The position numbers and the translations under genes are program-made. 64,000 nt of DNA, taken from NCBI GenBank assembly GCA_038065495.1, contig JBBTQW010000002.1:1537-65536 (forward strand), given 5' to 3'. Source of the stretch: Patescibacteria group bacterium. GTDB lineage: Bacteria; Patescibacteriota; Minisyncoccia; Phycocordibacterales; JACOZG01. Below are positions 13,802-59,592 of the stretch, in pieces. The notes below the pieces were generated by a model. It searched no databases. It had not been told where the DNA came from and was given only the letters and a program-made list of their open reading frames with translations. Positions within the stretch are counted from its first letter, which is position 1; every line of letters begins with the position of its first letter.

Positions 13802-14548
13802 ATGTTTATGAAGATTCTTGAATCAGTAAAAATCAAAAAAAGTCAGGGAACTCTAGACTGGAATAATTGGAGAAATACTATTCAGCAAATGGATTGTCTA
13901 ACTGGTTTGCAGTATATACCTGATGGTTCTGTAGATTTAGTCCTTACGGACCCCCCCTATGGCATAAGTAAAGAATTGAATTGCAAGGGACAAAGACTTG
14001 GTTCAACAGCAAAGTTAGATTTCAATTTTGGTGAGTGGGATACTTTTGGCAAAGAGTGGTTTCATATTGCAATAAAAAAGACTAGAGGATGGATGATGAC
14101 GTTTTGTGCAAAGAAAGACGTTGGATTTTTTATTGATACGTTGGAGGAAGACGGTTTTGTTGCAGTGGATGTTCTTGTTTGGCAAAAACCAGACCCAGTC
14201 CCGCTTAATGCTAAATCTCGTTTTCTTAATGCATGGGAAGCCGTTGTCATTGGTAAGCGTCCTGGATCAACATGGAATAGCAACTATGAACACAACATAA
14301 TTAAATGCCAAGCACCCAAAGGAAAAAATCGTTTTCACCCAACACAAAAACCAGTAGAATTGATTAAAAAGCTAGTATCATTGTCGACAAAAGAAGGTGG
14401 CCTAGTCCTAGATCCTTTTATGGGTAGTGGAACTACTGCGGTTGCATGTATAGAATCAAAAAGAAATTTTATTGGCTTCGAATTATCCAAGACTTATCAC
14501 AAAATGGCAGTTAACAGGATCAAAGAATTACCTACACCGCTATTTTAA
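13802..14548 (+). CDS. DNA methyltransferase, beta-class N6-adenine/N4-cytosine type
   Basis: Motif IV DLVLTDPPYGIS precedes motif I (VLDPFMGSGTTAVAC), and there is a HPTQKPVEL motif. The gene is AT-rich and a TATAAT sits immediately upstream. Confidence 0.85.
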   Translation: MFMKILESVKIKKSQGTLDWNNWRNTIQQMDCLTGLQYIPDGSVDLVLTDPPYGISKELNCKGQRLGSTAKLDFNFGEWDTFGKEWFHIAIKKTRGWMMTFCAKKDVGFFIDTLEEDGFVAVDVLVWQKPDPVPLNAKSRFLNAWEAVVIGKRPGSTWNSNYEHNIIKCQAPKGKNRFHPTQKPVELIKKLVSLSTKEGGLVLDPFMGSGTTAVACIESKRNFIGFELSKTYHKMAVNRIKELPTPLF

Positions 14549-15520
14549 TGGATAGATTAATTTGGCCCCAATTCTTTTTGCATCCTTGGCTGTAAGTGAG
14601 GCTTGTTTTCTTCTTACCTCCTTGTCTTGCTCAGCATATCTTTTTTGTTTAGCTTTTAATTTTTGTTTAAGTAATCGGACAACCTTTTTTGAGTCTGCTT
14701 CGTAAATTCTCTTGACGGCAAAATCATTTTTATCGACAGTGGCCAGTATTATACTTTTGTCATTAAGGTATTTTTTCAGAACGTCTTTTGAGATGTCTTG
14801 GAAGCTCCAACTTGAACTTTTTGATACCTTATATTCATACGTGTTACCAAAAAAATCAATAGCATCATGTTTGGCTTGCTCAGATTCAACTTTATGCCCC
14901 AGTTTTAAGGCGACTAATACCTCCCAGAACTTGTTGCTAGTCAGAATGTTTTTGGTTCCTACTAGTTTTTCGATTTTTAATACAGTGTCTACGATTTTCT
15001 TTATCCACTCAGAATATATACCCGAACATAGGCCCGCCGTCTCGTGTTTTGTGAGAGCCAAATTTGTTTCAATTTGCTTGGAACCCACGTTGATCATTTT
15101 CCTGTTGTTTTTTATTTTTTGTGTGGCTTCTGCAAGATACTTAGACATAATCATGCCCGCAACTTCGTAATACCAATCGAAGACGGGAAACGGTACATTC
15201 TTGTCTTGAATATGAGCAAAAATAACACTTTTAACCTTGGTTAACTTTTCAATGGTCGTTTTTGAGAAATCGTTAAAAGTCCAAGTGTGATTAGAGCTAC
15301 TTTCTTTATAGTGTTTATATTCATATTCGTTACCAGCCTTATCCTTAGCATCTCGTGACCCAGAGTGACCCGGAATAAGCTTATGATTAAGGGTGTCTGC
15401 AATAAGAACCTCAAATACCTTACTATTTGTTATAATGTCTGTAACACCGAAGGTGGCGAAGAAATCGGCCTGGATTTGCCTAAGTTCCTCTACAAGACTT
15501 TCTGTGGTGTCGGTATTCAT
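14540..15520 (-). CDS. putative restriction endonuclease with tandem-duplicated domains
   Basis: Located between two MTase genes. The two halves are clearly homologous (..GHSGSRDAKDKAGNEYEYK.. versus ..ESEQAKHDAIDFFGNTYEYK..), each carrying a D-x9-E-x-K-like motif. There is no secure family assignment. Confidence 0.4.
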   Translation of the reverse strand: MNTDTTESLVEELRQIQADFFATFGVTDIITNSKVFEVLIADTLNHKLIPGHSGSRDAKDKAGNEYEYKHYKESSSNHTWTFNDFSKTTIEKLTKVKSVIFAHIQDKNVPFPVFDWYYEVAGMIMSKYLAEATQKIKNNRKMINVGSKQIETNLALTKHETAGLCSGIYSEWIKKIVDTVLKIEKLVGTKNILTSNKFWEVLVALKLGHKVESEQAKHDAIDFFGNTYEYKVSKSSSWSFQDISKDVLKKYLNDKSIILATVDKNDFAVKRIYEADSKKVVRLLKQKLKAKQKRYAEQDKEVRRKQASLTAKDAKRIGAKLIYPLK

Positions 15521-15522
15521 CG

Positions 15523-16347
15523 ATGAAGACTATATCAATAAAAACCAAAATAAGCACTACTAGCGAGAATGCGCTGGTCTTTGGCGATGCCCTATTAACC
15601 CTAAAATCTTTACCAGACAATTCGGTCAATCACTGTTTTACCGACCCACCATATAACATATCTGGTTATGATAACAAGAAAAAAATTGGCTGGCTTCAGT
15701 CAAACCAAACATGGGTTAAGAAAAAGAAATTCACAAAAATAGACGCAGCTTGGGATAAATTTTCTGATGATGACTACGACACATTTAGTAGGGCGTGGAT
15801 ATCAGAGGTCATAAGAGTTTTAAAACCCAATGGCAACATCATTATTTTTGGTTCCTATCATAATATATATAAAATAGGTTCAATTCTCCAACAGCTTGAT
15901 CGTAAGCTGATAAATTCTATTGTTTGGTACAAAAGAAACGCATTTCCAAATGTAACACAAAGAATGTTTTGTGAAAGCACAGAACACATTATTTGGGCCG
16001 CGAATGAAACGCAAAAAAAAGCAAAAAATTGGACATTCAATTATAAGGACGTGAAAGCCTTAAACGGTGGTGTTCAGATGAGAAACATGTGGGACATCAC
16101 TACAACCCCTGCTTCGGAAAGGGTGCATGGAAAACATCCGTCCCAGAAGCCAATTGAGGTTCTTAATCGGCTTGTCCTTGGTTGTAGCAATAAAGACGAC
16201 ATCATAATCGACCCCTTTATGGGCAGTGGAACGTTACCAGTCGTGGCCCAGATTAATGGTCGAAGGTATATTGGTATCGATAGTGAAAAAGATTTTTGTG
16301 ATCTGGCCCTAAAGAGAGTTAAAGCTGAGTACAGTCGTTTATTTTAA
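15523..16347 (+). CDS. DNA methyltransferase, beta-class N6-adenine/N4-cytosine type
   Basis: CFTDPPYNIS (motif IV) followed by HPSQKPIEVL and IIDPFMGSGT (motif I). Confidence 0.85.
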   Translation: MKTISIKTKISTTSENALVFGDALLTLKSLPDNSVNHCFTDPPYNISGYDNKKKIGWLQSNQTWVKKKKFTKIDAAWDKFSDDDYDTFSRAWISEVIRVLKPNGNIIIFGSYHNIYKIGSILQQLDRKLINSIVWYKRNAFPNVTQRMFCESTEHIIWAANETQKKAKNWTFNYKDVKALNGGVQMRNMWDITTTPASERVHGKHPSQKPIEVLNRLVLGCSNKDDIIIDPFMGSGTLPVVAQINGRRYIGIDSEKDFCDLALKRVKAEYSRLF

Positions 16348-20039: not shown

Positions 20040-20061
20040 TTTTTCACAACTCATTCGCAAC

Positions 20062-20089
20062 TTGACAAAATCTACCGGCCCGCTATACT
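20062..20089 (+). promoter_or_regulatory. near-consensus sigma70 promoter TTGACA-N16-TATACT
   Basis: The hexamers are identical to those of the rpoB promoter at 25284..25311. Drives the small ORF at 20133. Confidence 0.55.
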
Positions 20090-20132
20090 AGAGCTGGCTG
20101 GGGGTTTGTACATTTTTTTGAAGGAGCTACGG

Positions 20133-20360
20133 ATGGCTCGGAACGTTCATGTGGATCCAACTGTGTTGTGTGATCTTGGAGACGCCGCGGAAGGCCGCGA
20201 ACCTTTCCGAGGTTTCGGCCTTGGTTGGAGAGAGTCAGAAAGCTTGGCGATCTCCCCGGATGTCGAGGAAGGCTTTGATTATGCCATGGCCCTAAAGCGG
20301 GCCAGGGCCAGAGGCCGCAAGCGCCTTGCTCAGGCGGCTGAGCGAACGGGCAATGCCTAA
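20133..20360 (+). CDS. small basic protein (75 aa, Arg/Ala-rich C-terminus), unknown function
   Basis: Strong RBS AAGGAG 6 nt upstream of the ATG. The ORF is GC-rich relative to its neighbours, has a consensus promoter upstream and an intrinsic terminator immediately downstream. The C-terminus KRARARGRKRLAQAAERTG suggests nucleic-acid binding. Confidence 0.4.
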   Translation: MARNVHVDPTVLCDLGDAAEGREPFRGFGLGWRESESLAISPDVEEGFDYAMALKRARARGRKRLAQAAERTGNA

Positions 20361-20389
20361 TCAGCACGGTGGATTATCCACACAGAACC

Positions 20390-50887: not shown

Positions 50888-50953
50888 CTAATTGAGTTTG
50901 AGATTCTGTGGCTTTTGTGATACGATTTGGGTACAAAAAAATACTGATATCTT

Positions 50954-52504
50954 ATGGTGAAAAGAACCTTCGTTTTAACGGGGAAAGACCTAAAAATAGC
51001 TGAGATTTACAGCTTAGTTAACGACCCAAGTATTAACGTAGAAGTCTCTCCAGAAGCTCTGGAAAACATCAAGAAGTCTAATCTATTTATTGAAAAAAGA
51101 AAGAAGGATGGTGTTGTGTATGGCCTGAACACTGGCTTTGGTCCAATGGCTTCTTATTTGGTCAGTGATACCGAGATAATTAATCTTCAGTATAACTTAG
51201 TAAGAAGCCACGCGGTTGGGATGGGCGAACCAATAAGTGAAACCTACTCTCTTGCCGCAATGCTTGTACGTCTGAATACTTTGATCAAAGGTTATTCTGG
51301 TGTGTCGATTGATTTGATTAATAAATTGTTGTGTTTTATCAACAAACGTATCGTCCCCGTTATTTATGAACATGGTGCGGTGGGCACTAGTGGCGACTTG
51401 GTACAGTTGGCTCATATTGCCCTTGCTCTAATTGGTGAAGGTGAGGTTTTTTATGAAGGTGTCAGGCAATCAACATCGGTTGTTATTAGCAAACTCGGAA
51501 TCGAGCCTCATCAGTTGAGGATCAAAGAGGGTTTAGCATTGATTAACGGCACTTCGGTAATGAGCGCAATCGCAGCCATTTTGTGTGTTAATGCTACAAG
51601 CGTTTTAAACACTGAAACAAAATTGGGAGCATTGTCGTTGGAGCTGGTCCGCGCCTTCAAAGATAGTCTTGATGAGAAATTGCATCAACTGCGACCGCAC
51701 CCGGGTCAGGTGTATGTCGCTGAGCGGTTAAGAACCATTCTCGATTCTTCAAAACTAATGCGGGATCGAGAAATGTTTACTCCGGAACGAGATCAGACTA
51801 ATTCGGTCAACAAAATCTCTGAGATGGTTCAGGAGGTTTACTCTATCCGTTGTTTGGCCCAGATACTCGGACCAGTTTACGAGTCAATTGAGAAAGCCAG
51901 AGAAATTATTGAAGTAGAAATAAACTCGGCTACCGATAACCCAATCGTTGATTGGGAACAAGAGCGGTTTCTCCATGGCGGCAACTTCCATGGCGATTAC
52001 GTGGCTTATGCTGTTGATCAACTCAAGATGACCATGGTTAAACTAAGTATCCTTTCCGAAAGACGGATTAATTTTTTCTTGAACACTAACGTGAATAAGT
52101 CTTTCCCGCCATTTTTGAACCTCAAACAACCAGGGTTAACTTTGGCATTACAGGGTTTACAATTTGTGGCCACTTCAACCACAGCCCAGAACCAAACTCT
52201 GGCTTTCCCGCAATATGTTCACTCTATTTCAACTAATGGTGACAATCAAGATGTGGTAAGCATGGGTACTGATGCGGCACTATTGTGCGCAAAAGTAATT
52301 GAAAATAATTACATTGTCCAAGCAATCGAACTAGTCACTTTATCTCAATGCGTAGATTTCCTAAGATGCTCGGACCAGCTCTCAAATTCGACTAAAGAAA
52401 TGTTTGCTGGGATTAGAAAGATTTTTCCCGAAGTAATGGACGATCGAGTGATTATAGATGATCTGAAAAACGCTGTCGGGTTTCTGAAATCAAAGTCTCA
52501 TTAG
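50954..52504 (+). CDS. MIO-dependent aromatic amino acid ammonia-lyase/aminomutase family protein (HAL/PAL/TAL-like)
   Basis: 516 aa with the family architecture. GAVGTSGDLVQLAH corresponds to the MIO-forming tripeptide region but reads Thr-Ser-Gly rather than the usual Ala-Ser-Gly. GLALINGTS is also present. Confidence 0.8.
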   Translation: MVKRTFVLTGKDLKIAEIYSLVNDPSINVEVSPEALENIKKSNLFIEKRKKDGVVYGLNTGFGPMASYLVSDTEIINLQYNLVRSHAVGMGEPISETYSLAAMLVRLNTLIKGYSGVSIDLINKLLCFINKRIVPVIYEHGAVGTSGDLVQLAHIALALIGEGEVFYEGVRQSTSVVISKLGIEPHQLRIKEGLALINGTSVMSAIAAILCVNATSVLNTETKLGALSLELVRAFKDSLDEKLHQLRPHPGQVYVAERLRTILDSSKLMRDREMFTPERDQTNSVNKISEMVQEVYSIRCLAQILGPVYESIEKAREIIEVEINSATDNPIVDWEQERFLHGGNFHGDYVAYAVDQLKMTMVKLSILSERRINFFLNTNVNKSFPPFLNLKQPGLTLALQGLQFVATSTTAQNQTLAFPQYVHSISTNGDNQDVVSMGTDAALLCAKVIENNYIVQAIELVTLSQCVDFLRCSDQLSNSTKEMFAGIRKIFPEVMDDRVIIDDLKNAVGFLKSKSH

Positions 52505-52513
52505 TTTGCCAAG

Positions 52514-53620
52514 ATGCAACAGCCAATATTTTTTAAGAATCGTTCGGAAATACCAGCTGGTGCTGAAATAATTGACTCTGTTGAAGGCAGCCTTCGCGAG
52601 CTTTTCTTTATCCAGAATCCTCAGTTCAAAAAAGAAATGCCAACGGCGGTTGGGCCACTGAAAGAATTCCTGTCCACACAAAAAACCGAGGGGATTTGGA
52701 TCTATTTGCCTTGGAGTAAAAAGATCATTCACTCTCTACCAGAGGAGTTATACTACAAATTGAGGACCACTCGTAACAGAAATATTATTAACGATGCCGA
52801 ACAAACTAATTACCGGAGCATCTCTGTGGGCATTGCTGGTTTATCTGTTGGTTCGGCTATTCTCTCGGCGCTGGTAACAAGTGGCGGTCCCAAAAAATTG
52901 AAAATTGCCGACTTTGATACTATTGAGGTTTCTAATCTTAACAGAATCCACGCAAAAATTACTGATCTCGGTAGTAACAAGGCCGAAGTAGCAGCAAGAA
53001 ATGTTTGGGAATTAGATCCCTTTGCTGAGTTATCAGTTTGGAGTTCTGGTGTTACTAAAGACAATATCGAAGATTTTGTGGCTGGGGCGCCAAAGCTGGA
53101 TGTATTTATTGATGAAATGGACAGCATTGATCTAAAGATTATTTCTCGCCTAGTGTGTAAAAAACTTAAGATTCCAGTCTTGATGGCGACAGACAATGGT
53201 GACGGAATAATACTAGATGTAGAGAGATTTGACCTTGAGCCGGATAGAAAGATTTTCCATGGTTTAGTTCAGAATGAGATTGATGAGAATTCTCCATCTG
53301 ACTTTGCTAATTTGGACTTTAAGAAGTGGTTGAGGCTAGCTACTATGATTGTCCACCCAGACTTTCTAACAGAAAGAATGATTGATTCTATACCGCAAAT
53401 TGGTAAGACTATTTCAGCTATTCCTCAATTGGGTACAAGTGCTTCGGTTGCCGGTACGGCTACTTCGTTTGTGGTAAGAAGAATTGCTAATAAAGAAGCC
53501 ATGCCATCTGGCAGGTATACTCTTAATTTTGAAGAGGTCTTTATTCCCGGGTATAAAGATCCTGTTTCAGTGGAACAGAGAGATAACAAGAAGAAAAAGT
53601 TTTTGGCAGCTTTTAAATAA
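52514..53620 (+). CDS. ThiF/MoeB/E1-like adenylyltransferase with ~100-aa N-terminal extension
   Basis: Rossmann motif ISVGIAGLSVGSAILSAL, then DFDTIEVSNLNRI and DEMDSIDLK.. typical of E1-like enzymes. The N-terminal extension could be a peptide/substrate clamp (inference). Confidence 0.7.
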   Translation: MQQPIFFKNRSEIPAGAEIIDSVEGSLRELFFIQNPQFKKEMPTAVGPLKEFLSTQKTEGIWIYLPWSKKIIHSLPEELYYKLRTTRNRNIINDAEQTNYRSISVGIAGLSVGSAILSALVTSGGPKKLKIADFDTIEVSNLNRIHAKITDLGSNKAEVAARNVWELDPFAELSVWSSGVTKDNIEDFVAGAPKLDVFIDEMDSIDLKIISRLVCKKLKIPVLMATDNGDGIILDVERFDLEPDRKIFHGLVQNEIDENSPSDFANLDFKKWLRLATMIVHPDFLTERMIDSIPQIGKTISAIPQLGTSASVAGTATSFVVRRIANKEAMPSGRYTLNFEEVFIPGYKDPVSVEQRDNKKKKFLAAFK

Positions 53621-53626
53621 GTTATC

Positions 53627-55075
53627 ATGAATCTAAAATCGAACAAGTTTTCTGTTGACTTCAAAAGGATCAGAAGCATAAAGGCTTATAGAAGTTTTTT
53701 ATTGAGACACAAAATAAAACTGAGCTCGCTCAAAACATCTAAAGACCTTCTTAAATTGCCGGTGACTGATAAGGCCAGTTATATTAACAAGTTTAGACCA
53801 GAGAGTTTGTTATTTAAGGGCAAAGTCCCACCGATGATTTCTGCTAGTTCCGGATCGTCGGGACAGCCTAATTTCTGGTTTCGCGACGATAAACAAGAAG
53901 AAGTTGGCGGCGAAATACATCGGATTATTCTAGATAAGATCTTTGATATTAATAAAAAAGACAGCACCTTGGTGGTAATTTGCTTCTCCATGGGCGTTTG
54001 GATTGCGGGCAGCTATACGCTTAGTAGTTTCCGTTATACAGCCAGGAAAGGTTACAGCCTGAGTGTCATTTCACCTGGTATTGATAAAGAAGACACCTTA
54101 AATATTCTGAAAAATTTGGCCCCAAGATTCAAGAACTTGATTTTGGCGGGTTACCCACCGTTTATTATGGATGTTATTAACGATGCCGCTAAAGAGGGGA
54201 TTGAATTAAAAAACAGGAAGATAAAAATAATCACCTCTGGTGACAAGTTCTCCGAGAAATGGCGCTCGGATCTACTGGCGATGCTTAACGAGAAAGACAT
54301 GAACGCGTCTCTCATTGGTATTTATGGTTCGGCAGACGCTGGAATATTGGGTCACGAAACACCCCTATCGATTTTCTTGAGAAGAGAGACCCTGGCAAAC
54401 AAAGCACTAGGTCAGGAACTTTTTGGTGACCGAGTTGGACCAATTCCAGCCCTAGTACAGTATTACCCCTCAGAGGTCAATTTTGAAACTGTTTCAAACG
54501 AGCTAGTTCTAACCACCAAGACGGCCATGCCACTTATGCGATACAACATTCACGATACCGGAAGAACCTTAAATTATGCGGAAATAAAAAACATTTTAGA
54601 TAAGCATAATTTAACAAAAAAGGCGGTCAAATTTGGTTTGAATTACTGGAAACTGCCACTCTTGATCTTAAGTGGTAGAACAGATGTTGCTGTTACTTTT
54701 TATGCATTAAACATCTACCCAGAAAATATCAAATCTTCGATTGAAGACCCAAGAATAACCAAATTTCTCACCGGAAACTATAGTGCTTTCAGTAAAACGT
54801 CAGAGAAAAGTAAGACGGAGAGACTCTATATAAAACTAGAATTAGCCAACCCGAAGATAAATGGCAAGAAGATTCACCGATTGGTAACGAATGTTTTGGT
54901 CGAAAAGCTAAGTGAGCTTAACATCGAATACAGAAAGTTGCGCTCAGCCATAGGCAAAAAAGCTCTGCCAGTGGTTATTTTCACAAACCCCAACGACAAT
55001 GGCCTAAACAACATCAATGAAAGAAGGCTCTTGTCTTTGAACGGAAAAAAACCGAAAGTTATTTTAATGAAATAA
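53627..55075 (+). CDS. PaaK/coenzyme-F390-synthetase-like adenylate-forming enzyme
   Basis: ANL-type phosphate-binding motif ISASSGSSGQPNFW (compare SSGTTGKP in PaaK). Size and layout are consistent with the PaaK/CapK family. Confidence 0.55.
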   Translation: MNLKSNKFSVDFKRIRSIKAYRSFLLRHKIKLSSLKTSKDLLKLPVTDKASYINKFRPESLLFKGKVPPMISASSGSSGQPNFWFRDDKQEEVGGEIHRIILDKIFDINKKDSTLVVICFSMGVWIAGSYTLSSFRYTARKGYSLSVISPGIDKEDTLNILKNLAPRFKNLILAGYPPFIMDVINDAAKEGIELKNRKIKIITSGDKFSEKWRSDLLAMLNEKDMNASLIGIYGSADAGILGHETPLSIFLRRETLANKALGQELFGDRVGPIPALVQYYPSEVNFETVSNELVLTTKTAMPLMRYNIHDTGRTLNYAEIKNILDKHNLTKKAVKFGLNYWKLPLLILSGRTDVAVTFYALNIYPENIKSSIEDPRITKFLTGNYSAFSKTSEKSKTERLYIKLELANPKINGKKIHRLVTNVLVEKLSELNIEYRKLRSAIGKKALPVVIFTNPNDNGLNNINERRLLSLNGKKPKVILMK

Positions 55076-56133
55076 TGTCAAACGACGATATCCAGGAGAT
55101 TATTGACTTAGCCATCTGGGCCCCATCGGGAGACAACTCTCAACCATGGAGGTTCCAGATTATCGAAAACAAGTTACGAATCTTTAATATACCGAACCGC
55201 GATAATCCTATATTAAACTTTCAACAAAGTGGGTCGTATCTTGCTCATGGCGCTTTAATCGAAAACCTCAATCTTTTAGCAAAAGTCCGTGGTTACGATT
55301 CAACGATAATTCTTTTTCCAGATAAAACAAACTCAGATTTTGTAGCAGAGATCACTCTAGTGAGAAATGCGTTGGGTCAGGTATCTGATAATCTCGAACA
55401 ATACGTGAGCAAGAGACACACCAATCGCAAACCTTATCAAACTGAACCACTTGATGAGCCTACGGCTGAAGCATTGAAAGGAGCCGTGAGTCAAGAATAT
55501 GGTCAAGTCGTTTTAGTTACTGATAGAAAAAAGATAGACCAAGTGGCGCCACTTCTCAGTAATATGGAGAGAATCGCTCTCGAGAACAAGGATCTCCACC
55601 ATTCTTTTTTTAGAAGTATCTTTTGGAACAAAGTTAGAAATCAAAAGGGAAAACCAGGATTGTTTATAGAAACTCTAGAGTTGCCACCACCCGCTAGGCC
55701 ACTTTTTAAGTTATTAAAATTTTGGCCGGTGACCTGTTTTGCTAATTTTTTTGGCTTCTCACGTTTGGCAAGCAAGGGTAACGCTAAACTTTATGCCCAA
55801 TCTGGTGCCTATATTGCAATTATGAGTAAGCAAGACGATCCAGTGGGTTTTGTAAATGCCGGACGCTTGATGCAGAGAGCCTGGCTGACTGCAACTTCCC
55901 TCAGTCTTAGCGTCCAACCAGTCACCGGGGTTTTATTTATGGGTCGACGCTTTCTCTCTGGTGACACGGGCGATTTTACTCAAGAACATGTTGATTTGGC
56001 CGTTTCTTCTTATCAAAAACTGCGGTCGATAGTTGGTCTTTCGGATCAAGATACTATCGCAATACTACTTCGTGTTGGATATGGAAAAACAGCAACGGCG
56101 AGATCGGGAAGGATGGATCCGGTCTACGCCTAG
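55075..56133 (+). CDS. nitroreductase-family flavoprotein (SagB/McbC-like or tandem nitroreductase)
   Basis: AIWAPSGDNSQPWRF motif near the N-terminus; the C-terminal half is again nitroreductase-like. Confidence 0.65.
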   Translation: MSNDDIQEIIDLAIWAPSGDNSQPWRFQIIENKLRIFNIPNRDNPILNFQQSGSYLAHGALIENLNLLAKVRGYDSTIILFPDKTNSDFVAEITLVRNALGQVSDNLEQYVSKRHTNRKPYQTEPLDEPTAEALKGAVSQEYGQVVLVTDRKKIDQVAPLLSNMERIALENKDLHHSFFRSIFWNKVRNQKGKPGLFIETLELPPPARPLFKLLKFWPVTCFANFFGFSRLASKGNAKLYAQSGAYIAIMSKQDDPVGFVNAGRLMQRAWLTATSLSLSVQPVTGVLFMGRRFLSGDTGDFTQEHVDLAVSSYQKLRSIVGLSDQDTIAILLRVGYGKTATARSGRMDPVYA

Positions 56134-56194
56134 AACAAGAAGTGAGTCCTTTAAACTAAGTGTTATTTAATTTATACTTAAGACACCAAACTAT

Positions 56195-57139
56195 ATGGGA
56201 ATGGGAAAAAGGTTAATAGAAGTCAACGGTATTGTGCAAGACCTAAGGTCGCTTAAAAGTATGGGCGACGGTCAGCACGATTACGCGATTGAGCAGAATA
56301 TTATTTTTTTTGAAGCAATTAAAAATCCGATAAGCTATTTAAAATGGTTATTTTGGCAGGCCCCCAAAATTAATGGTCACGAATTACAGGAAATAAATGA
56401 TCTTTTGCCCAAATATGATTTATTTATGCATACCAAACTTATTGAGATGGAGAAGAAAAGATTTCCTGGTTTAGTCGAACCAATAGTTGATCGTCTAACA
56501 AATTTAATTAACCAAGAACTACGAACGGTGACCCTGATTAATCTTGGTAGTGGTGGAATGGAAGTCGAGAGACAGGTGATAAATAGGCTCATAAAAATGG
56601 GCCATGACTATCCTGTTGTTTTTGTTGGCGTTGACCAATCTAGCGAGACTCGTCTGTTAGCAAGGAATAATCTTGCTTCCTTTGAAAGAAAGATCTTGAT
56701 CACCGAAAAGGATGATCTTTCTCAAATTGATCTAGATAAAATAAAAAGCAAAGATCAAAATAATCAGTATAAAGTTGTTCTTTGCGGAAATGATATTTTT
56801 AGACTGCCCGATAATTTTAAGAAAAAATACTTTGATTTTGGGTTACACTCACTTTTCAGACATCATCTTAATGAAAAACAAAAAAATAGATTAGATGAGG
56901 TTTTGCAATCAATTGCGGATACCACGCTGGAATATGACGGCTTTAAAGATTGGTTTGGGATCTTGCCCCAAACCATAATCGGTTGGAAACACCCTGTTTT
57001 TTTGAACGCAGAAATTTTTTCAAATTTACGTTTTTCTACAAAGTTTAAAATAAAACAGGAAGTTGAAAAAAGGGGCTGGAGGAGTGTTAAATTGAATTTT
57101 TCAAAAATAGGATACTACTTGCTACAATGTTATCACTAA
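56195..57139 (+). CDS. hypothetical protein, possible Rossmann/methyltransferase-like
   Basis: TLINLGSGGMEVER...VVFVGVDQS weakly resembles SAM-MTase motif I. Low certainty. Last gene of the low-GC operon. Confidence 0.3.
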   Translation: MGMGKRLIEVNGIVQDLRSLKSMGDGQHDYAIEQNIIFFEAIKNPISYLKWLFWQAPKINGHELQEINDLLPKYDLFMHTKLIEMEKKRFPGLVEPIVDRLTNLINQELRTVTLINLGSGGMEVERQVINRLIKMGHDYPVVFVGVDQSSETRLLARNNLASFERKILITEKDDLSQIDLDKIKSKDQNNQYKVVLCGNDIFRLPDNFKKKYFDFGLHSLFRHHLNEKQKNRLDEVLQSIADTTLEYDGFKDWFGILPQTIIGWKHPVFLNAEIFSNLRFSTKFKIKQEVEKRGWRSVKLNFSKIGYYLLQCYH

Positions 57140-58758
57140 ACTTTTCACTCCTAAATAATCTCGGTCTCTTATCTGTAGCCGTAACCATAGCTGGTATGCT
57201 AATTTTGGGATTTACCATTTTTTTTAATGGCCGAAAGAGTATTACCAATCGGGCGTTTTTAATATTATCGTGGTCCGCGGCATTTTGGAGTCTTGTTAAT
57301 TATATAAGTTATCAGATAAAAGCTAATTCGGGAGCAATCTTTTTTTGGAGATTAGAATTATTTTTTGCTGTTTGGTTTGCCTTTTCTCTATTTTATTTTT
57401 TGATAGTATTTCCTCAACAAAAAGGCGTTTCCCAAAAAAAAGGTATTTTAATGGTTTTTAGCGCCTCTGTATTCGTTTCTATTTTAACGTTAACACCTCT
57501 CGTTTTTCGTGAAGTTACCGCCGTAAATGAAAACGGTTACGTATCAAAAATAAAAAATGGCTGGGGGATGGCTTTATTTGGTGGCCTAGTCGCAGTTTTG
57601 TTACTTTCTGGTTTGTATGTTTTCATTAAAAAAACATTAAAGGTAGCGCGGCCTAACAAAAAACCCTTTTCCCTTATTTTAATCGGAATGATCACAAGCT
57701 GGTCATTAATTATAGTATTTAATTTCTTACTCCCCGCCTTTTTTGATAATCCAAGATTTATTCCGCTCGGTGCTTTATTCATCTTTCCTCTAATTGCTTT
57801 CACCTCCTATGCCATCATTAAACACGGCTTATTGAATATCAAAGTGGTCACGACCGAAATCCTAACCTTTATCCTTGCCGTTGTCACTTTCTCGGAAATT
57901 ATTTTTGCGACGGAGTTGTCGCAGATTATTTTCCGGAGTAGCGTGTTTTTGCTCGTGCTAGTCTTTGGGATCTTGCTCATCAAGGGCGTGCGTAAAGAAG
58001 TCGAACAGCGGGAAAAAATCGAAATTTTGGCGACCGAGTTGACCCTGGCAAACGATAAACTGCGCGAACTGGATAAGCAGAAAACGGAATTCCTCTCCAT
58101 CGCCTCGCATCAGTTGCGGGCGCCACTGACGGCAATTAAAGGCTACTCGTCGCTCTTACTCGAGAAATCTTTCGGCGAGATTAGTGAGAAAGTAAGGGGC
58201 GCGGTAGATGTGATCTTCCAATCCAGTCAGAAGCTAGTGACGGTAATTGAAGATTTTCTTAACATCACGCGCATTGAGCTGGGTAAAATGAAGTACGAAA
58301 TGGCCCAAGTGGATCTGAAGCAATTGGTTGAGACGGCCGTTAAAGAGTTGCATAATCAAATCGCGGCGAAAGGTTTGGAGTTGAGGGTGAATATTCCGAC
58401 CGGTTTGGACTTCAAAGTCAACGCTGATGCCGGCAAGATCGCGCAGGTCATTGGTAACTTGATTGATAATGCGACTAAGTACACTAAACAGGGTAGTATC
58501 ACGATTTCTCTTAGCAAGCCGCTGGGCACAAGCAAAGTGCGATTGGAAATTACCGACACGGGCATTGGTATGACGCCCGGTGCTCACGCCCAACTCTTCC
58601 AGAAGTTTACCCGTGCCACCGATGCCGGCAAGGTCAATATTATCGGCACTGGCTTGGGCCTGTATGTGGCCAAGCAGATCGTGGAGGCGCATCATGGCCA
58701 GATCTGGGCCGAGTCGCCCGGGCCGGGCAAGGGAAGTGTGTTTTATGTTGAGATTTAA
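57127..58758 (+). CDS. sensor histidine kinase with multi-TM N-terminal sensor
   Basis: About six TM helices, HisKA H-box FLSIASHQLRAPLTAIKGY, and HATPase_c G-boxes (GTGLGLYVAKQIV). No response regulator is seen nearby. Confidence 0.85.
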   Translation: MLSLNFSLLNNLGLLSVAVTIAGMLILGFTIFFNGRKSITNRAFLILSWSAAFWSLVNYISYQIKANSGAIFFWRLELFFAVWFAFSLFYFLIVFPQQKGVSQKKGILMVFSASVFVSILTLTPLVFREVTAVNENGYVSKIKNGWGMALFGGLVAVLLLSGLYVFIKKTLKVARPNKKPFSLILIGMITSWSLIIVFNFLLPAFFDNPRFIPLGALFIFPLIAFTSYAIIKHGLLNIKVVTTEILTFILAVVTFSEIIFATELSQIIFRSSVFLLVLVFGILLIKGVRKEVEQREKIEILATELTLANDKLRELDKQKTEFLSIASHQLRAPLTAIKGYSSLLLEKSFGEISEKVRGAVDVIFQSSQKLVTVIEDFLNITRIELGKMKYEMAQVDLKQLVETAVKELHNQIAAKGLELRVNIPTGLDFKVNADAGKIAQVIGNLIDNATKYTKQGSITISLSKPLGTSKVRLEITDTGIGMTPGAHAQLFQKFTRATDAGKVNIIGTGLGLYVAKQIVEAHHGQIWAESPGPGKGSVFYVEI

Positions 58759-58770
58759 AATAAAATAACA

Positions 58771-59529
58771 GTGAACAATTCAGAAACTATGCGTAGAGAT
58801 TTTATTATAATTGGGGTAGTGATTCTCTTTTTCTTGCTTGGGTTTTTCTGGTGGAGTGGCGTCAACGTAGACGAACAAACACCAGTAGGTATGGACAATA
58901 AAAGCGTTATAACTGAGAAATTTACAATTTCCGCTACCAAAGTGGGTACGCATTCTACGGTTTTTAAAAAGTACGCTTCGGGTAAGGTCGAGGCAGTATT
59001 AGAATTTGAAGAAGCGATTGCCGCTGATGATTCTGGAAATTATTGGGCCAGTTTACCAGCAAATGTCGCATCCACACCTGATTCCAGCAAATTGGCTTAT
59101 ATTGATACACAAGGATTAAAGATCCGAAGTCTAGATGATGCTCAAGATGTTATTCTGGTTGAAAAACTAGGAGAATCTAGGGATACGATAAAGGGGTATC
59201 ATAATTGGAACCCGTCTATGGGGAATGCTAGTTCGATCCATAAACCACGCTGGTCATCAAACGGTAAATATATCTCTTTCTTGATTGCTCAGTATGAGGG
59301 ATCTAGACTAGGGGTGATCGATATTGCTGAGCGTAAACTCACATTTGGTCCCAGGAGCGGGCGACAGACTTGGTCTAGGGTTGGTAACAGTTTACTGTTG
59401 ATCTCTAGTTCTAATGACTGTGACGGATGTGAAAATAAAGTTTTAGTTTTAGATGCAGAAACTGGGAAAATGCGAGAGATGGCTAAGGAAGTACTTAGAC
59501 TGGTAGAAAAAGACTATTTACCAGAATAA
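58771..59529 (+). CDS. membrane-anchored extracytoplasmic protein, possible beta-propeller (TolB/PD40-like)
   Basis: N-terminal TM helix and repetitive beta-rich segments. Weak by-eye call. Confidence 0.3.
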   Translation: MNNSETMRRDFIIIGVVILFFLLGFFWWSGVNVDEQTPVGMDNKSVITEKFTISATKVGTHSTVFKKYASGKVEAVLEFEEAIAADDSGNYWASLPANVASTPDSSKLAYIDTQGLKIRSLDDAQDVILVEKLGESRDTIKGYHNWNPSMGNASSIHKPRWSSNGKYISFLIAQYEGSRLGVIDIAERKLTFGPRSGRQTWSRVGNSLLLISSSNDCDGCENKVLVLDAETGKMREMAKEVLRLVEKDYLPE

Positions 59530-59592
59530 AAAAACGGACAAGCATTTGTGGTGCCTGTCCGTTGTTATTGTCTAAAACTTTCTTACACCAGA

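What the first reader, a model, noticed from the sequence alone, without database searches (positions are those of the whole stretch)
50954..57139. Low-GC five-gene operon combining a MIO ammonia-lyase/aminomutase homolog, E1-like enzyme, PaaK-like adenylase and nitroreductase-like flavoprotein
Directly after dnaK-dnaJ lies a tightly packed operon that is visibly AT-richer than its surroundings. It encodes (1) a HAL/PAL/TAL-family enzyme whose MIO-forming triplet reads TSG instead of the canonical ASG; (2) a ThiF/MoeB-like adenylyltransferase with an extra N-terminal domain; (3) a PaaK/F390-synthetase-like adenylate-forming enzyme; (4) a nitroreductase-fold protein of the SagB/McbC type; and (5) an unknown protein. 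Aromatic amino-acid deamination or aminomutation followed by adenylation/CoA activation is natural-product chemistry, giving cinnamate or coumarate-type acids or beta-amino acids. That is unexpected in a reduced-genome organism. No YcaO or obvious precursor peptide is present, so this is not a classical TOMM cluster. An orphan histidine kinase follows.
Basis: partly seen in the sequence, partly recalled or inferred. Interest (0 to 1): 0.6.

Follow-up and report, generated by a model that had tools for sequence, protein, structure and literature searches.

The report
Oxazolone-type signal operon with sensor kinase
A tiny-genome (Patescibacteria) bacterium carries a conserved six-gene cassette that most likely turns an aromatic amino acid into an oxazolone-type small molecule, and the cassette is hard-wired to its own membrane sensor kinase, which gives a first candidate receptor for a compound class whose role is unknown.

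Summary
The five-gene operon is real, intact and moderately AT-rich.

- **Genes 2 and 4** are the two halves of a split Rv1355c/TrzS-type enzyme: a ThiF-like ATP-dependent cyclase and a flavin-dependent oxidase of the nitroreductase superfamily. In Mycobacterium, Pseudoalteromonas and Planctomycetes this pair converts N-acyl aromatic amino acids into oxazolones or N-acyl-dehydroamino acids.
- **The usual acyl-CoA N-acyltransferase is missing.** A PaaK-fold adenylating ligase (gene 3) stands in its place. Elsewhere this ligase is fused to the ThiF cyclase and to an amino-acid dehydrogenase.
- **Gene 1** is a tyrosine-type MIO lyase, not HutH. It is an exchangeable accessory.
- **Gene 5** has a SAM-methyltransferase fold.
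- **The "orphan" histidine kinase** is the most constant partner: 34 of 44 ligase-seeded loci hold ligase, ThiF, oxidase and 7TM kinase together.

Best reading: a ligase-dependent variant of oxazolone biosynthesis coupled to a dedicated sensor kinase. This is a new variant of a known kind. The chemistry and the ligand–receptor link are inferred, not shown.

The parts
50898..50926 (+). Promoter-like site (TTGAGA-17-TACGAT, with TG) in the 66-nt dnaJ-lyase gap. A candidate only.
   Evidence: Consensus scan. The number of such sites in the region does not exceed the shuffled expectation, so this is weak evidence.
50954..52504 (+). Gene 1: MIO-dependent aromatic amino-acid ammonia-lyase, tyrosine type (FlxA/TAL-like), with a T-S-G MIO triplet. 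Proposed supplier of the acyl-donor acid (p-coumarate).
   Evidence: PF00221, E 1e-156. Best NCBIfam match is FlxA TAL at 618 bits (cut-off 700), against hutH at 449. Y56; H86 corresponds to SgTAM His93; NGDNQDVVSMG is identical to SgTAM; GFGPMAS stands where the aminomutase has GYGE71MIY. The TSG aligns with the MIO 'X' of solved structures. The clade is conserved in 14 loci.
52514..53620 (+). Gene 2: ThiF-like ATP-dependent cyclase, homologous to the N-terminal half of Rv1355c/TrzS, including its N-terminal extension.
   Evidence: NF005901 'Rv1355c family' at 298 bits, E 1e-88, model positions 36-351; the next-best ThiF model scores 68 bits. Invariant in 37 homologs: G109, G113, D133, N141-L-N-R144, K156, D203, R212, D235, E237, R238. 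TrzS function from PMC12856293.
53627..55075 (+). Gene 3: PaaK-fold adenylate-forming ligase of a distinct family. Proposed ATP-dependent N-acylating enzyme that replaces the acyl-CoA N-acyltransferase.
   Evidence: Weak PaaK, F390 and FlxY hits. AF2 model with pLDDT 76.7; Foldseek best hits are PaaK1/2, BT_0428, ClxA, 6siw and AjiA1, E 1e-16 to 1e-10. Invariant SSGSSG.P, YGSADAG, RYNIHD and GR.D motifs. The family has 767 representatives at E<=1e-30. Natural fusions: ThiF-LIG, LIG-ThiF and aaDH-LIG-ThiF.
55075..56133 (+). Gene 4: flavin-dependent oxidase (FDO subgroup of the nitroreductase superfamily), homologous to the C-terminal half of Rv1355c/TrzS. Proposed C-alpha/C-beta desaturase.
   Evidence: PRK14851 at 185 bits; NF005901 at 169 bits over model positions 374-712; Acg family at 153 bits; no SagB hit. 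Best PDB match is M. smegmatis Acg, 2ymv. Invariant S18, N21, Q23, P24, W25, R114, R118.
56195..57139 (+). Gene 5: protein with a class I SAM-methyltransferase fold, from a family found only in Patescibacteria. Proposed tailoring methyltransferase.
   Evidence: No Pfam family. 62 homologs, all annotated hypothetical. AF2 model with pLDDT 94.9. All top Foldseek hits are SAM methyltransferases: CmoA/YecO, CurJ C-MT, Coq5, SgvM. In every locus examined that holds it, it lies immediately upstream of the kinase (window, L029, L032, L049, L050). A canonical SAM-MTase occupies the same slot in 4 other loci.
57127..58758 (+). Sensor histidine kinase with an N-terminal polytopic (HisKA_7TM) domain, translationally coupled to gene 5. 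Proposed receptor for the cassette's product.
   Evidence: PF16927 + PF00512 + PF02518. H328, N444, D477/G479/G481 and G507-G511 are invariant in 37 orthologs. Adjacent to the enzymes in 37 of 44 loci. Divergence of the sensor domain tracks that of the enzymes (r 0.67-0.70), whereas the kinase domain does not (r 0.25-0.35).

Best explanation
The locus is a Patescibacteria-wide cassette for an oxazolone-type (azlactone or N-acyl-2,3-dehydroamino-acid) small molecule, co-transcribed with a dedicated 7TM sensor histidine kinase.

Proposed route:
1. The tyrosine-type MIO lyase deaminates tyrosine to p-coumarate.
2. The PaaK-fold ligase adenylates that acid and joins it to the amino group of an amino acid, giving an N-acyl amino acid. 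This step replaces the acyl-CoA-dependent N-acyltransferase (OxzA/TyzA/TrzA/NasY) of the known pathways.
3. The ThiF-like enzyme adenylates the carboxylate of the N-acyl amino acid and cyclises it to an oxazolone.
4. The flavin-dependent oxidase desaturates C-alpha/C-beta.
5. The methyltransferase-fold protein tailors the product.
6. The product, or its ring-opened form, is the ligand of the co-encoded kinase, which signals through stand-alone receiver proteins encoded elsewhere in this genome.

Shown here: homology, motif conservation, synteny and gene fusions. Taken from the literature: the chemistry of the ThiF/FDO pair. Inferred: the substrate of the lyase, the amide-forming role of the ligase, the methylation, and the kinase-ligand relation.
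For: (a) Genes 2 and 4 match the two halves of the Rv1355c/TrzS model: 298 bits over positions 36-351 and 169 bits over positions 374-712. That is far above any other ThiF model (68 bits). TrzS, OxzB and TyzB/C are experimentally shown oxazolone synthases.

(b) Of 44 distinct loci seeded on the ligase, 34 hold ligase, ThiF, FDO and 7TM kinase together. They occur in at least five gene orders, with gaps mostly of -4 to +10 nt. Most exceptions are cut by contig ends.

(c) Rosetta-stone fusions exist: ThiF-ligase (880 aa), ligase-ThiF (863 aa), and ScyB-like amino-acid dehydrogenase-ligase-ThiF (1242 aa). The last is found in two assemblies, flanked by FDO and the 7TM kinase.

(d) The variable slot always holds an enzyme that deaminates an amino acid to a carboxylic acid. 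It is a His-type MIO lyase of clade 1 or clade 2, a PAL-type lyase in Streptomyces, or a Leu/Phe/Trp-dehydrogenase-family enzyme.

(e) The ligase has a PaaK fold. Its structural neighbours include ClxA, solved with an aryl acid and its adenylate, and AjiA1 and 6siw/6siy. From my own knowledge, not tested here, these are CoA-independent benzoxazole ligases. No acyltransferase gene is in the cassette.

(f) A methyltransferase next to ThiF and nitroreductase genes has a precedent in the stieleriacine clusters.

(g) There is no room for a precursor-peptide gene, there is no YcaO, and anti-phage models give only weak generic E1 hits.

(h) Sensor-domain distances of the kinase correlate with enzyme distances, r 0.67-0.70.
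Against: - No product has been seen, and nothing here tests enzyme activity.
- The defining N-acyltransferase of the known pathways is absent, so the substrate of the ThiF/FDO pair is a guess.
- The ligase could simply make a CoA thioester or act on something else.
- The characterised FDOs need O2, whereas many Patescibacteria come from anoxic groundwater.
- The kinase family is broader than the cassette. A syntenic relative (L051) has three paralogous 7TM kinases and no biosynthetic genes. The Streptomyces versions lack the kinase.
- No response regulator lies within the 64-kb window.
- The distance correlation is confounded by shared phylogeny and by the smaller dynamic range of the kinase domain.
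Confidence: 0.5

Rival explanations
1. The enzymes make a bioactive or membrane-active N-acyl-dehydroamino acid or oxazolone, for example an antimicrobial or host-directed compound. The kinase is only a co-regulated or unrelated neighbour. It senses something else, such as host contact or amino-acid supply, and not the product.
For: Known N-acyl-dehydrotyrosines have antimicrobial activity, and no receptor is known for any oxazolone. 7TM kinase paralogs exist without the cassette. The Streptomyces ligase-ThiF-FDO clusters lack a kinase and sit next to an ABC transporter.
Against: The kinase adjacency, with translational coupling, survives at least five rearrangements of gene order and spans several Patescibacteria lineages. 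The adjacent regulators are bare receiver domains, so the kinase is not an obvious transcriptional regulator of the operon. Sensor-domain divergence tracks enzyme divergence.
Confidence: 0.25
2. The cassette makes a chromophore or cofactor that is loaded onto the kinase, by analogy with heme oxygenase-bacteriophytochrome operons or with TAL plus p-coumarate ligase for photoactive yellow protein. That would make the kinase a light or redox sensor.
For: Arylidene-oxazolones absorb at 330-360 nm and show E/Z isomerism. A coumaroyl substituent would extend the conjugation. The combination of TAL, ligase and kinase, and the stand-alone receiver partners, recall photoreceptor operons (own knowledge). 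Azlactones are electrophiles that can acylate Lys or Cys (own knowledge).
Against: There is no conserved Cys in the sensor domain, and the only conserved Lys (K239) lies outside the predicted membrane core. Half of the cassettes lack the lyase. Many source samples are dark habitats such as groundwater and deep Lake Baikal.
Confidence: 0.08
3. It is a RiPP or TOMM-like peptide-modification system, in which an E1-like docking or adenylating protein and an FMN dehydrogenase act on a ribosomal peptide or on a protein C-terminus.
For: E1-like proteins and nitroreductase-fold dehydrogenases do occur together in TOMM clusters. ThiF-like enzymes usually act on peptide or protein carboxylates.
Against: There is no YcaO. 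No conserved small ORF is present, and the intergenic gaps are too short to hold one. No SagB model was hit. The ThiF protein scores 298 bits to the small-molecule-acting TrzS family against at most 68 bits to other ThiF models. The kinase C-terminus is not Gly-Gly.
Confidence: 0.04
4. It is catabolic or housekeeping metabolism: histidine or aromatic-acid degradation (HutH plus PaaK CoA ligase), or a molybdopterin/thiamin sulfur-carrier E1.
For: Generic annotations read 'histidine ammonia-lyase', 'phenylacetate-CoA ligase' and 'ThiF/MoeB'. Clade-2 lyases score best against HAL models, at 372 bits, below the cut-off.
Against: - The lyase has Gln, not the HAL Glu414 equivalent, in the NQD motif, and it scores 618 bits to FlxA-type TAL against 449 to hutH.
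- No hutU, hutI or paa genes were seen in the loci whose called genes carry Pfam annotation.
- The PaaK equivalog score is 37 against a cut-off of 646.
- ThiF/MoeB equivalog scores lie far below their cut-offs.
Confidence: 0.03

Closest known systems
TrzAS (Rv1356c-Rv1355c) N-acyl tryptazolone pathway of Mycobacterium (Kleetz et al., J Biol Chem 2025, PMC12856293)
   Same: A ThiF-like ATP-dependent cyclase plus an FDO desaturase. Genes 2 and 4 are the best NCBIfam matches to the two halves of Rv1355c, including its N-terminal extension.
   Different: In TrzS the two activities are fused in one protein; here they are two genes separated by the ligase gene. TrzA, an acyl-CoA N-acyltransferase, has no counterpart here. 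A PaaK-fold ligase, a lyase, a methyltransferase-fold protein and a 7TM kinase are added.
OxzAB (Pseudoalteromonas rubra) and TyzACB (M. tuberculosis) tyrazolone pathways (de Rond et al., bioRxiv 10.1101/2020.06.11.147165; Grigg et al. 2023, PMC10404671)
   Same: Oxazolone formation from an N-acyl aromatic amino acid by ThiF plus FDO. TyzB and TyzC are separate genes, as here. The biological role is unknown, and signalling has been suggested.
   Different: In those pathways the acyl donor is a fatty acyl-CoA, delivered by a GNAT/AHL-synthase-like enzyme. Here an amino-acid-derived acid is presumably activated by a ligase. No sensor kinase is linked to those clusters.
[quoted passage not shown]
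   Same: ThiF, nitroreductase and methyltransferase genes lie together. The end products are N-acyl-2,3-dehydrotyrosines, which shows that the ring-opened form can be the final product.
   Different: [quoted passage not shown] The ligase, the lyase and the kinase are absent there.
FlxA/FlxY (tyrosine ammonia-lyase + acyl-CoA ligase that start flexirubin biosynthesis)
   Same: Gene 1 scores best against the FlxA model (618 bits), and gene 3 weakly hits FlxY. The logic is the same: a lyase followed by an adenylating enzyme.
   Different: Both scores are below the equivalog cut-offs. No polyketide or flexirubin genes are present. The MIO triplet is TSG.
PaaK-family CoA-independent ligases of benzoxazole pathways (NatL2-type 6siw/6siy, AjiA1 6wuq, ClxA 9s45)
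   Same: Same fold (Foldseek E 1e-13 to 1e-10). They are a precedent for a PaaK-like enzyme that couples an aryl-adenylate directly to a nucleophile (own knowledge).
   Different: Only 12-17% identity. The partner enzymes and the products are different.

Membership tests
Oxazolone synthase pair (TrzS / OxzB / TyzB+TyzC) | ThiF-like domain of the Rv1355c/TrzS subfamily | tested here: met
   NF005901 at 298 bits, E 1e-88, over model positions 36-351; the next ThiF model scores 68 bits. Homologs in other loci score 316 bits.
Oxazolone synthase pair (TrzS / OxzB / TyzB+TyzC) | FDO-subgroup nitroreductase-fold protein fused to, or adjacent to, the ThiF gene | tested here: met
   Gene 4 scores 169 bits to NF005901 positions 374-712, 185 bits to PRK14851 and 153 bits to the Acg family. 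FDO is present in 39 of 44 loci and ThiF in 38 of 44.
Oxazolone synthase pair (TrzS / OxzB / TyzB+TyzC) | Adenylation and FMN-site residues shown by mutagenesis (TrzS D217, R540, Q651) | tested here: inconclusive
   ThiF nucleotide motifs (G109..G113, D133, NLNR144, D203) and FDO residues R114/R118 are invariant.
Oxazolone synthase pair (TrzS / OxzB / TyzB+TyzC) | Adjacent acyl-CoA-dependent N-acyltransferase (OxzA/TyzA/TrzA/NasY) | tested here: not met
   No acyltransferase domain in any cassette gene. A PaaK-fold ligase stands in its place in all 44 loci.
Oxazolone synthase pair (TrzS / OxzB / TyzB+TyzC) | Product is an N-acyl oxazolone | not testable with these tools
   Needs expression and LC-MS.
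MIO-dependent tyrosine ammonia-lyase (FlxA-type) | Full-length aromatic-lyase domain, catalytic Tyr, and an X-Ser-Gly triplet at the MIO position | tested here: met
   PF00221 over residues 13-489. Y56 and T145-S146-G147 align to the catalytic Tyr63 and the MIO 'X' of SgTAM. TSG instead of ASG is the rule in this clade: 12 of 14 members.
MIO-dependent tyrosine ammonia-lyase (FlxA-type) | Selectivity His (RsTAL His89 / SgTAM His93) and no aminomutase Glu71 | tested here: met
   H86 aligns with SgTAM His93, and P64 stands at the Glu71 position. The role of this His is taken from Watts et al. 2006 as cited in PMC9002059.
MIO-dependent tyrosine ammonia-lyase (FlxA-type) | Score above the NCBIfam FlxA equivalog cut-off | tested here: not met
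   618 bits against a cut-off of 700. It is related to the curated family but lies outside it.
Histidine ammonia-lyase HutH | hutH equivalog score, the HAL Glu414 equivalent, and hutU/hutI neighbours | tested here: not met
   449 bits against a cut-off of 539. NQDVVSM, with Gln where HAL has Glu (the HAL motif is from my own knowledge). No hut genes in the Pfam-annotated loci.
Phenylacetate-CoA ligase PaaK | PaaK fold and adenylation motifs | tested here: met
   Foldseek best hits are PaaK1/2, E 3e-16. SSGSSG.P, YGSADAG, RYNIHD and GR.D are invariant.
Phenylacetate-CoA ligase PaaK | Equivalog-level sequence similarity and a paa catabolic context | tested here: not met
   37.5 bits against a cut-off of 646. 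No Pfam AMP-binding hit. No paa genes nearby.
TOMM / RiPP cyclodehydratase-dehydrogenase system | YcaO, SagB-type dehydrogenase, precursor peptide | tested here: not met
   No YcaO or SagB hit. Intergenic gaps of 9, 6, -1, 61 and -13 nt leave no room for a precursor gene.
Two-component sensor histidine kinase | H-box His, and N, G1 and G2 boxes | tested here: met
   H328, N444, D477/G479/G481 and G507/G509/G511 are invariant in 37 orthologs. HisKA and HATPase_c domains found.
Two-component sensor histidine kinase | Cognate response regulator encoded next to it | tested here: not met
   No receiver-domain match in the 64-kb window. A stand-alone receiver is adjacent in 13 of 44 related loci.
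Class I SAM-dependent methyltransferase (gene 5) | Rossmann-like methyltransferase fold with a glycine-rich motif I | tested here: met
   AF2 model with pLDDT 94.9. The Foldseek hits listed are almost all SAM methyltransferases, best E 4e-9. In the L-G-S-G-G-M-E motif, G120 and E123 are invariant and G118 is at least 90% conserved. Sequence models do not detect the family, and SAM binding is untested.

The most novel reading that the evidence does not exclude
Patescibacteria synthesise an amino-acid-derived arylidene-oxazolone (or its ring-opened dehydroamino-acid form) as a self-made signal. It is read by a dedicated 7TM histidine kinase which, through bare receiver proteins and in some genomes a receiver-PilB ATPase, controls type IV pili or host attachment. 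That would be the first small-molecule autoinducer-receptor circuit in the Candidate Phyla Radiation and the first receptor for any natural oxazolone.
Probability: 0.22. Interest if true: 0.85.

Novelty: new variant of a known kind. Interest (0 to 1): 0.62.

Why it matters
**Open question about oxazolones.** The papers that defined bacterial oxazolone biosynthesis state that the physiological role of these compounds is unresolved, and they suggest signalling. A cassette in which the oxazolone-type enzymes are translationally coupled to a sensor kinase, across many Patescibacteria lineages, gives a concrete receptor candidate. That makes the question testable.

**Biosynthetic logic.** The cassette shows a second route to the ThiF/FDO pair. 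An adenylating ligase is fed by an amino-acid-deaminating enzyme, in place of an acyl-CoA N-acyltransferase. I did not check whether these organisms have fatty-acid or CoA metabolism. If they lack it, as is often said of this group (own knowledge), the ligase route would make sense.

**What these organisms can do.** Patescibacteria are usually regarded as metabolically minimal. A conserved specialised-metabolite-plus-sensor module in them is unexpected, and it may bear on how these episymbionts sense partners or each other.

Tried and rejected
- **Sequence search of the ligase against PDB chains** found nothing meaningful. Structure prediction and Foldseek were needed.
- **tRNA and Rfam scans of the window** were empty.
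- **Response regulator, receiver-PilB or PilC in the window:** none found, even at E=5.
- **Conserved Cys or membrane-embedded Lys in the kinase sensor domain** (covalent-chromophore idea): no conserved Cys, and only K239, outside the predicted membrane core.
- **Anti-phage reading:** PADLOC gives only generic E1 hits of 17-31 bits.
- **Mobile or phage origin:** no relative of the ligase in viral contigs.
- **RiPP reading:** there is no room for small ORFs.
- **TSG triplet of AdmH (PaPAM):** I tried to verify from PDB sequences that it also has TSG, but PDB sequences show the MIO as 'X'. That precedent rests on my memory only.
- **Word-indexed search with the kinase sensor domain** returned mostly fragments and says little about family size.
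- **Literature searches** for the combinations ThiF/nitroreductase/lyase/kinase and Patescibacteria/ammonia-lyase found no prior description of this cassette.
- **Mapping TrzS D217, R540 and Q651** failed for lack of the TrzS sequence.

Full report
**What is there.** On the + strand, directly after grpE-dnaK-dnaJ, lie six tightly packed ORFs:

| Gene | Coordinates | Length |
|---|---|---|
| Gene 1 | 50954-52504 | 516 aa |
| Gene 2 | 52514-53620 | 368 aa |
| Gene 3 | 53627-55075 | 482 aa |
| Gene 4 | 55075-56133 | 352 aa |
| Gene 5 | 56195-57139 | 314 aa |
| Histidine kinase | 57127-58758 | 543 aa |

The gaps are 9, 6, -1, 61 and -13 nt. All six are intact and have the lengths of their homologs. 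The contig is from a Patescibacteria MAG, GCA_964356885.1. The operon genes have GC 0.35-0.43 and GC3 0.33-0.44. The other 47 genes of the window have GC 0.475 +/- 0.047 and GC3 0.505 +/- 0.082. The AT-richness is therefore real but moderate, and a restriction-modification locus at 13802-16347 shares it. A moderately distant relative with the same flanking synteny (rpoA ... dnaK-dnaJ ... trpS; RpoA 56%, TrpS 63% identity) has 7TM kinases at this place but none of the five enzyme genes. The enzymes are thus a presence/absence cassette.

**The key identification.** Gene 2 is not a generic ThiF/MoeB protein. It matches the NCBIfam model of the Rv1355c family over model positions 36-351 with 298 bits (E 1e-88). 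Every other ThiF-type model scores 68 bits or less. Gene 4 matches positions 374-712 of the same model (169 bits), the related PRK14851 (185 bits) and the Acg family of FMN oxidoreductases (153 bits). No SagB-type model is hit.

[quoted passage not shown] It converts N-acyl-tryptophan into an N-acyl oxazolone (PMC12856293). The same chemistry is performed by OxzB of Pseudoalteromonas and by the separate proteins TyzB and TyzC of M. tuberculosis (PMC10404671; bioRxiv 10.1101/2020.06.11.147165; review PMC12596934).

Genes 2 and 4 are therefore a split TrzS. Nucleotide-binding motifs of the ThiF protein are invariant in 37 and 36 homologs respectively: G109..G113, D133, N141-L-N-R144, D203. So is the FMN-type motif of the FDO: S18, N21, Q23-P-W25, R114, R118. 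I could not map the mutagenised TrzS residues (D217, R540, Q651) because I had no TrzS sequence.

**The cassette is conserved, and its core is not the lyase.** I seeded on gene 3 and fetched 43 loci from one genome per species, plus several metagenomic contigs. All-against-all clustering of their ORFs gives 44 distinct loci:

| Component | Loci (of 44) |
|---|---|
| Ligase | 44 |
| FDO | 39 |
| ThiF | 38 |
| 7TM kinase | 37 |
| All four together | 34 |
| MIO lyase | 21 |
| Stand-alone receiver | 13 |
| Canonical SAM methyltransferase | 4 |
| Gene 5 | 3 |
| Amino-acid dehydrogenase | 3 |

Most loci that lack a core gene are cut by a contig end. The gene order varies:
- lyase-ThiF-ligase-FDO-[MT]-kinase, as in the window;
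- ThiF-ligase-lyase-FDO-kinase;
- FDO-ThiF-[dehydrogenase]-ligase-[gene 5]-kinase;
- ThiF-ligase-FDO-kinase;
- ligase-ThiF-FDO(opposite strand)-kinase in Saccharimonadales.

In 30 of these 34 complete loci the kinase is the last gene of the block on the same strand as the ligase; in the other four (L006, L040, L043, L045) an intervening gene lies on the opposite strand. Across all 34, the kinase is usually within -4 to +10 nt of the preceding gene. Two Streptomyces loci carry ligase-ThiF-FDO without a kinase. One of them has a lyase with the Phe-Leu (PAL-type) selectivity pair.

**The ligase belongs to the same pathway.** Gene 3 has no Pfam family and only weak PaaK, F390 and FlxY matches. Its AlphaFold model (pLDDT 76.7) finds PaaK1/PaaK2, BT_0428, ClxA, a 'PaaK family AMP-ligase' (6siw/6siy) and AjiA1 as best structures, with E 3e-16 to 2e-10. 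The adenylation motifs SSGSSG.P, YGSADAG, RYNIHD and GR.D are invariant. A profile search of 1.84 billion representatives finds 767 family members at E<=1e-30.

Among these are natural fusions:
- TrzS-type ThiF + ligase (880 aa);
- ligase + ThiF (863 aa);
- ScyB-like amino-acid dehydrogenase + ligase + ThiF (1242 aa).

The triple fusion occurs in two independent assemblies, flanked by FDO upstream and by an alpha/beta-hydrolase and the 7TM kinase downstream. TrzS and OxzB are themselves ThiF-FDO fusions. The fusions therefore tie dehydrogenase, ligase, ThiF and FDO into one pathway.

No acyltransferase of the OxzA/TyzA/TrzA/NasY kind is present in the cassette. The simplest inference is that the ligase supplies the N-acyl amino acid by ATP-dependent amide formation. 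From my own knowledge, the PaaK-fold benzoxazole ligases couple aryl-adenylates directly to a nucleophile, which is a precedent. This step is inferred, not shown.

**The lyase.** Gene 1 is a full-length aromatic-lyase-family protein (E 1e-156). Its best curated match is the flexirubin tyrosine ammonia-lyase FlxA, at 618 bits (cut-off 700), well above hutH at 449. Alignment with the tyrosine aminomutase SgTAM gives these correspondences:

| Gene 1 | SgTAM | Meaning |
|---|---|---|
| Y56 | Tyr63 | catalytic base |
| H86 | His93 | phenol-binding selectivity residue |
| NGDNQDVVSMG | identical | HAL has Glu in this motif (own knowledge) |
| Pro in GFGPMAS | Glu71 in GYGE71MIY | Glu71 is linked to aminomutase activity (own knowledge) |

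The TSG triplet aligns with the MIO residue of solved structures. TSG is the rule in this lyase clade, in 12 of 14 members. It is therefore a lineage trait and not a lesion. I recall that AdmH/PaPAM also uses TSG but could not verify it.

A second lyase clade, about 30% identical and with ASG, also has the His residue. It occupies a different slot, between ligase and FDO. In lyase-less cassettes the extra gene, where there is one, belongs to the Leu/Phe/Trp-dehydrogenase family, with ScyB as best match at 265 bits. What these alternatives have in common is that each deaminates an amino acid to a carboxylic acid. That fits a role as supplier of the acyl donor. In the window the donor is most likely p-coumarate.

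**Gene 5.** The family has 62 members, all annotated as hypothetical proteins and with no Pfam domain; every organism name shown is a Patescibacteria lineage. The AlphaFold model is confident (pLDDT 94.9). Nearly all its Foldseek neighbours are class I SAM methyltransferases: CmoA/YecO, CurJ and DszA C-methyltransferases, Coq5 and SgvM. In every locus examined that holds it, it sits immediately upstream of the kinase. A canonical methyltransferase occupies that slot in four other loci. A methyltransferase next to ThiF and nitroreductase genes is also found in the stieleriacine clusters, whose products are methylated N-acyl-2,3-dehydrotyrosines (PMC12479983).

**The kinase.** It has an N-terminal HisKA_7TM domain and intact H, N, G1 and G2 boxes, all invariant in 37 orthologs. 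The window holds no response regulator. In 13 related loci a bare receiver protein is adjacent. In three of them a receiver-PilB ATPase and PilC follow. The partners are receiver-only proteins, so the kinase does not look like a transcriptional regulator of the operon. Co-transcription with the enzymes suggests instead a ligand-receptor or cofactor-receptor relation.

Over 30 loci, pairwise distances of the sensor domain correlate with those of ligase, ThiF and FDO (r 0.67-0.70). Those of the kinase domain correlate much less (r 0.25-0.35). This fits co-adaptation of sensor and product, but shared ancestry and different dynamic ranges confound it.

Evidence against an exclusive link:
- paralogous 7TM kinases exist without the enzymes;
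- the Streptomyces versions lack a kinase.

**Rejected readings.**
- RiPP/TOMM: no YcaO, no SagB hit, no space for a precursor gene.
- Histidine or phenylacetate catabolism: scores far below the cut-offs, wrong active-site residues, no hut or paa neighbours.
- Anti-phage E1 systems: only weak generic hits.
- Phage origin: no viral relatives.
- Chromophore-loading model, by analogy with heme oxygenase-phytochrome or TAL-ligase-PYP operons. It is not excluded, because tyrazolones absorb near 360 nm and isomerise. It lacks a conserved Cys or membrane Lys, and many source habitats are dark.

**Verdict.** The papers I could search contain no description of this cassette.

My confidence, by claim:

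| Claim | Confidence |
|---|---|
| ThiF and FDO perform TrzS-like chemistry on a small N-acyl amino acid | about 0.65 |
| The ligase makes that amide | about 0.45 |
| The kinase senses the product | about 0.35 |

Noticed in passing
window 13802-16347: A low-GC (0.37-0.38) restriction-modification locus. Two N6/N4 DNA methylases flank a PvuII-like endonuclease on the opposite strand.
   Followed up: partly
window 21316-22788 (and flanks 20040-21315, 22789-23832): A 490-aa ORF with a weak IS110-family transposase match and the highest GC among the longer genes of the window (0.567). On both sides are about 1-kb stretches without ORFs of 100 aa or more. No Rfam or tRNA hit anywhere in the window.
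   Followed up: no
window 58771-59529: A 252-aa ORF 12 nt after the kinase. It has an N-terminal hydrophobic segment, no Pfam, NCBIfam or PADLOC hit, low GC (0.406), and no homolog in any related locus. It may be co-transcribed. A terminator-like hairpin follows at 59533-59563 on the opposite strand.
   Followed up: partly
L008 14128-19148; L009 and L014 likewise: In three related loci the cassette kinase is followed by a stand-alone receiver, a receiver-fused T2SSE (PilB-like) ATPase and a T2SSF (PilC-like) protein. This hints that the output could be type IV pilus control.
   Followed up: partly
L049 2607-9573: A variant with FDO-gene 5-kinase but no ThiF or ligase. It is preceded by a phosphoribosyltransferase-like protein, a GNAT acetyltransferase, an AstE/AspA-family (N-acyl amino acid deacylase-type) protein and a LOG-like protein.
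   Followed up: partly
L021 11481-12422; L053 9732-10607: Hydrolases sit in the slot just before the kinase: an M19 (dehydropeptidase-family) dipeptidase in L021 and an alpha/beta-hydrolase in L053/L054. They may open or cleave the oxazolone or dehydroamino-acid product.
   Followed up: no
L051 8001-14895: A syntenic relative has three paralogous 7TM histidine kinases, a PlsC-type acyltransferase and a shikimate-dehydrogenase-like gene between dnaJ and trpS, and no biosynthetic cassette.
   Followed up: partly
L041 454-4117; L048 8336-12979: Streptomyces loci with ligase-ThiF-FDO. L048 also has a lyase with the PAL-type Phe-Leu selectivity pair. L041 sits next to an ABC transporter. The L048 reading frames look frameshifted. 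No known product was identified.
   Followed up: partly
window 52514-53620 (gene 2): The best solved-structure match by sequence is 9egb/9egc, an unnamed 'THIF-type NAD/FAD binding fold domain-containing protein' (E 4e-12), ahead of tRNA ct6A dehydratase TcdA. I did not find out what 9egb is.
   Followed up: no
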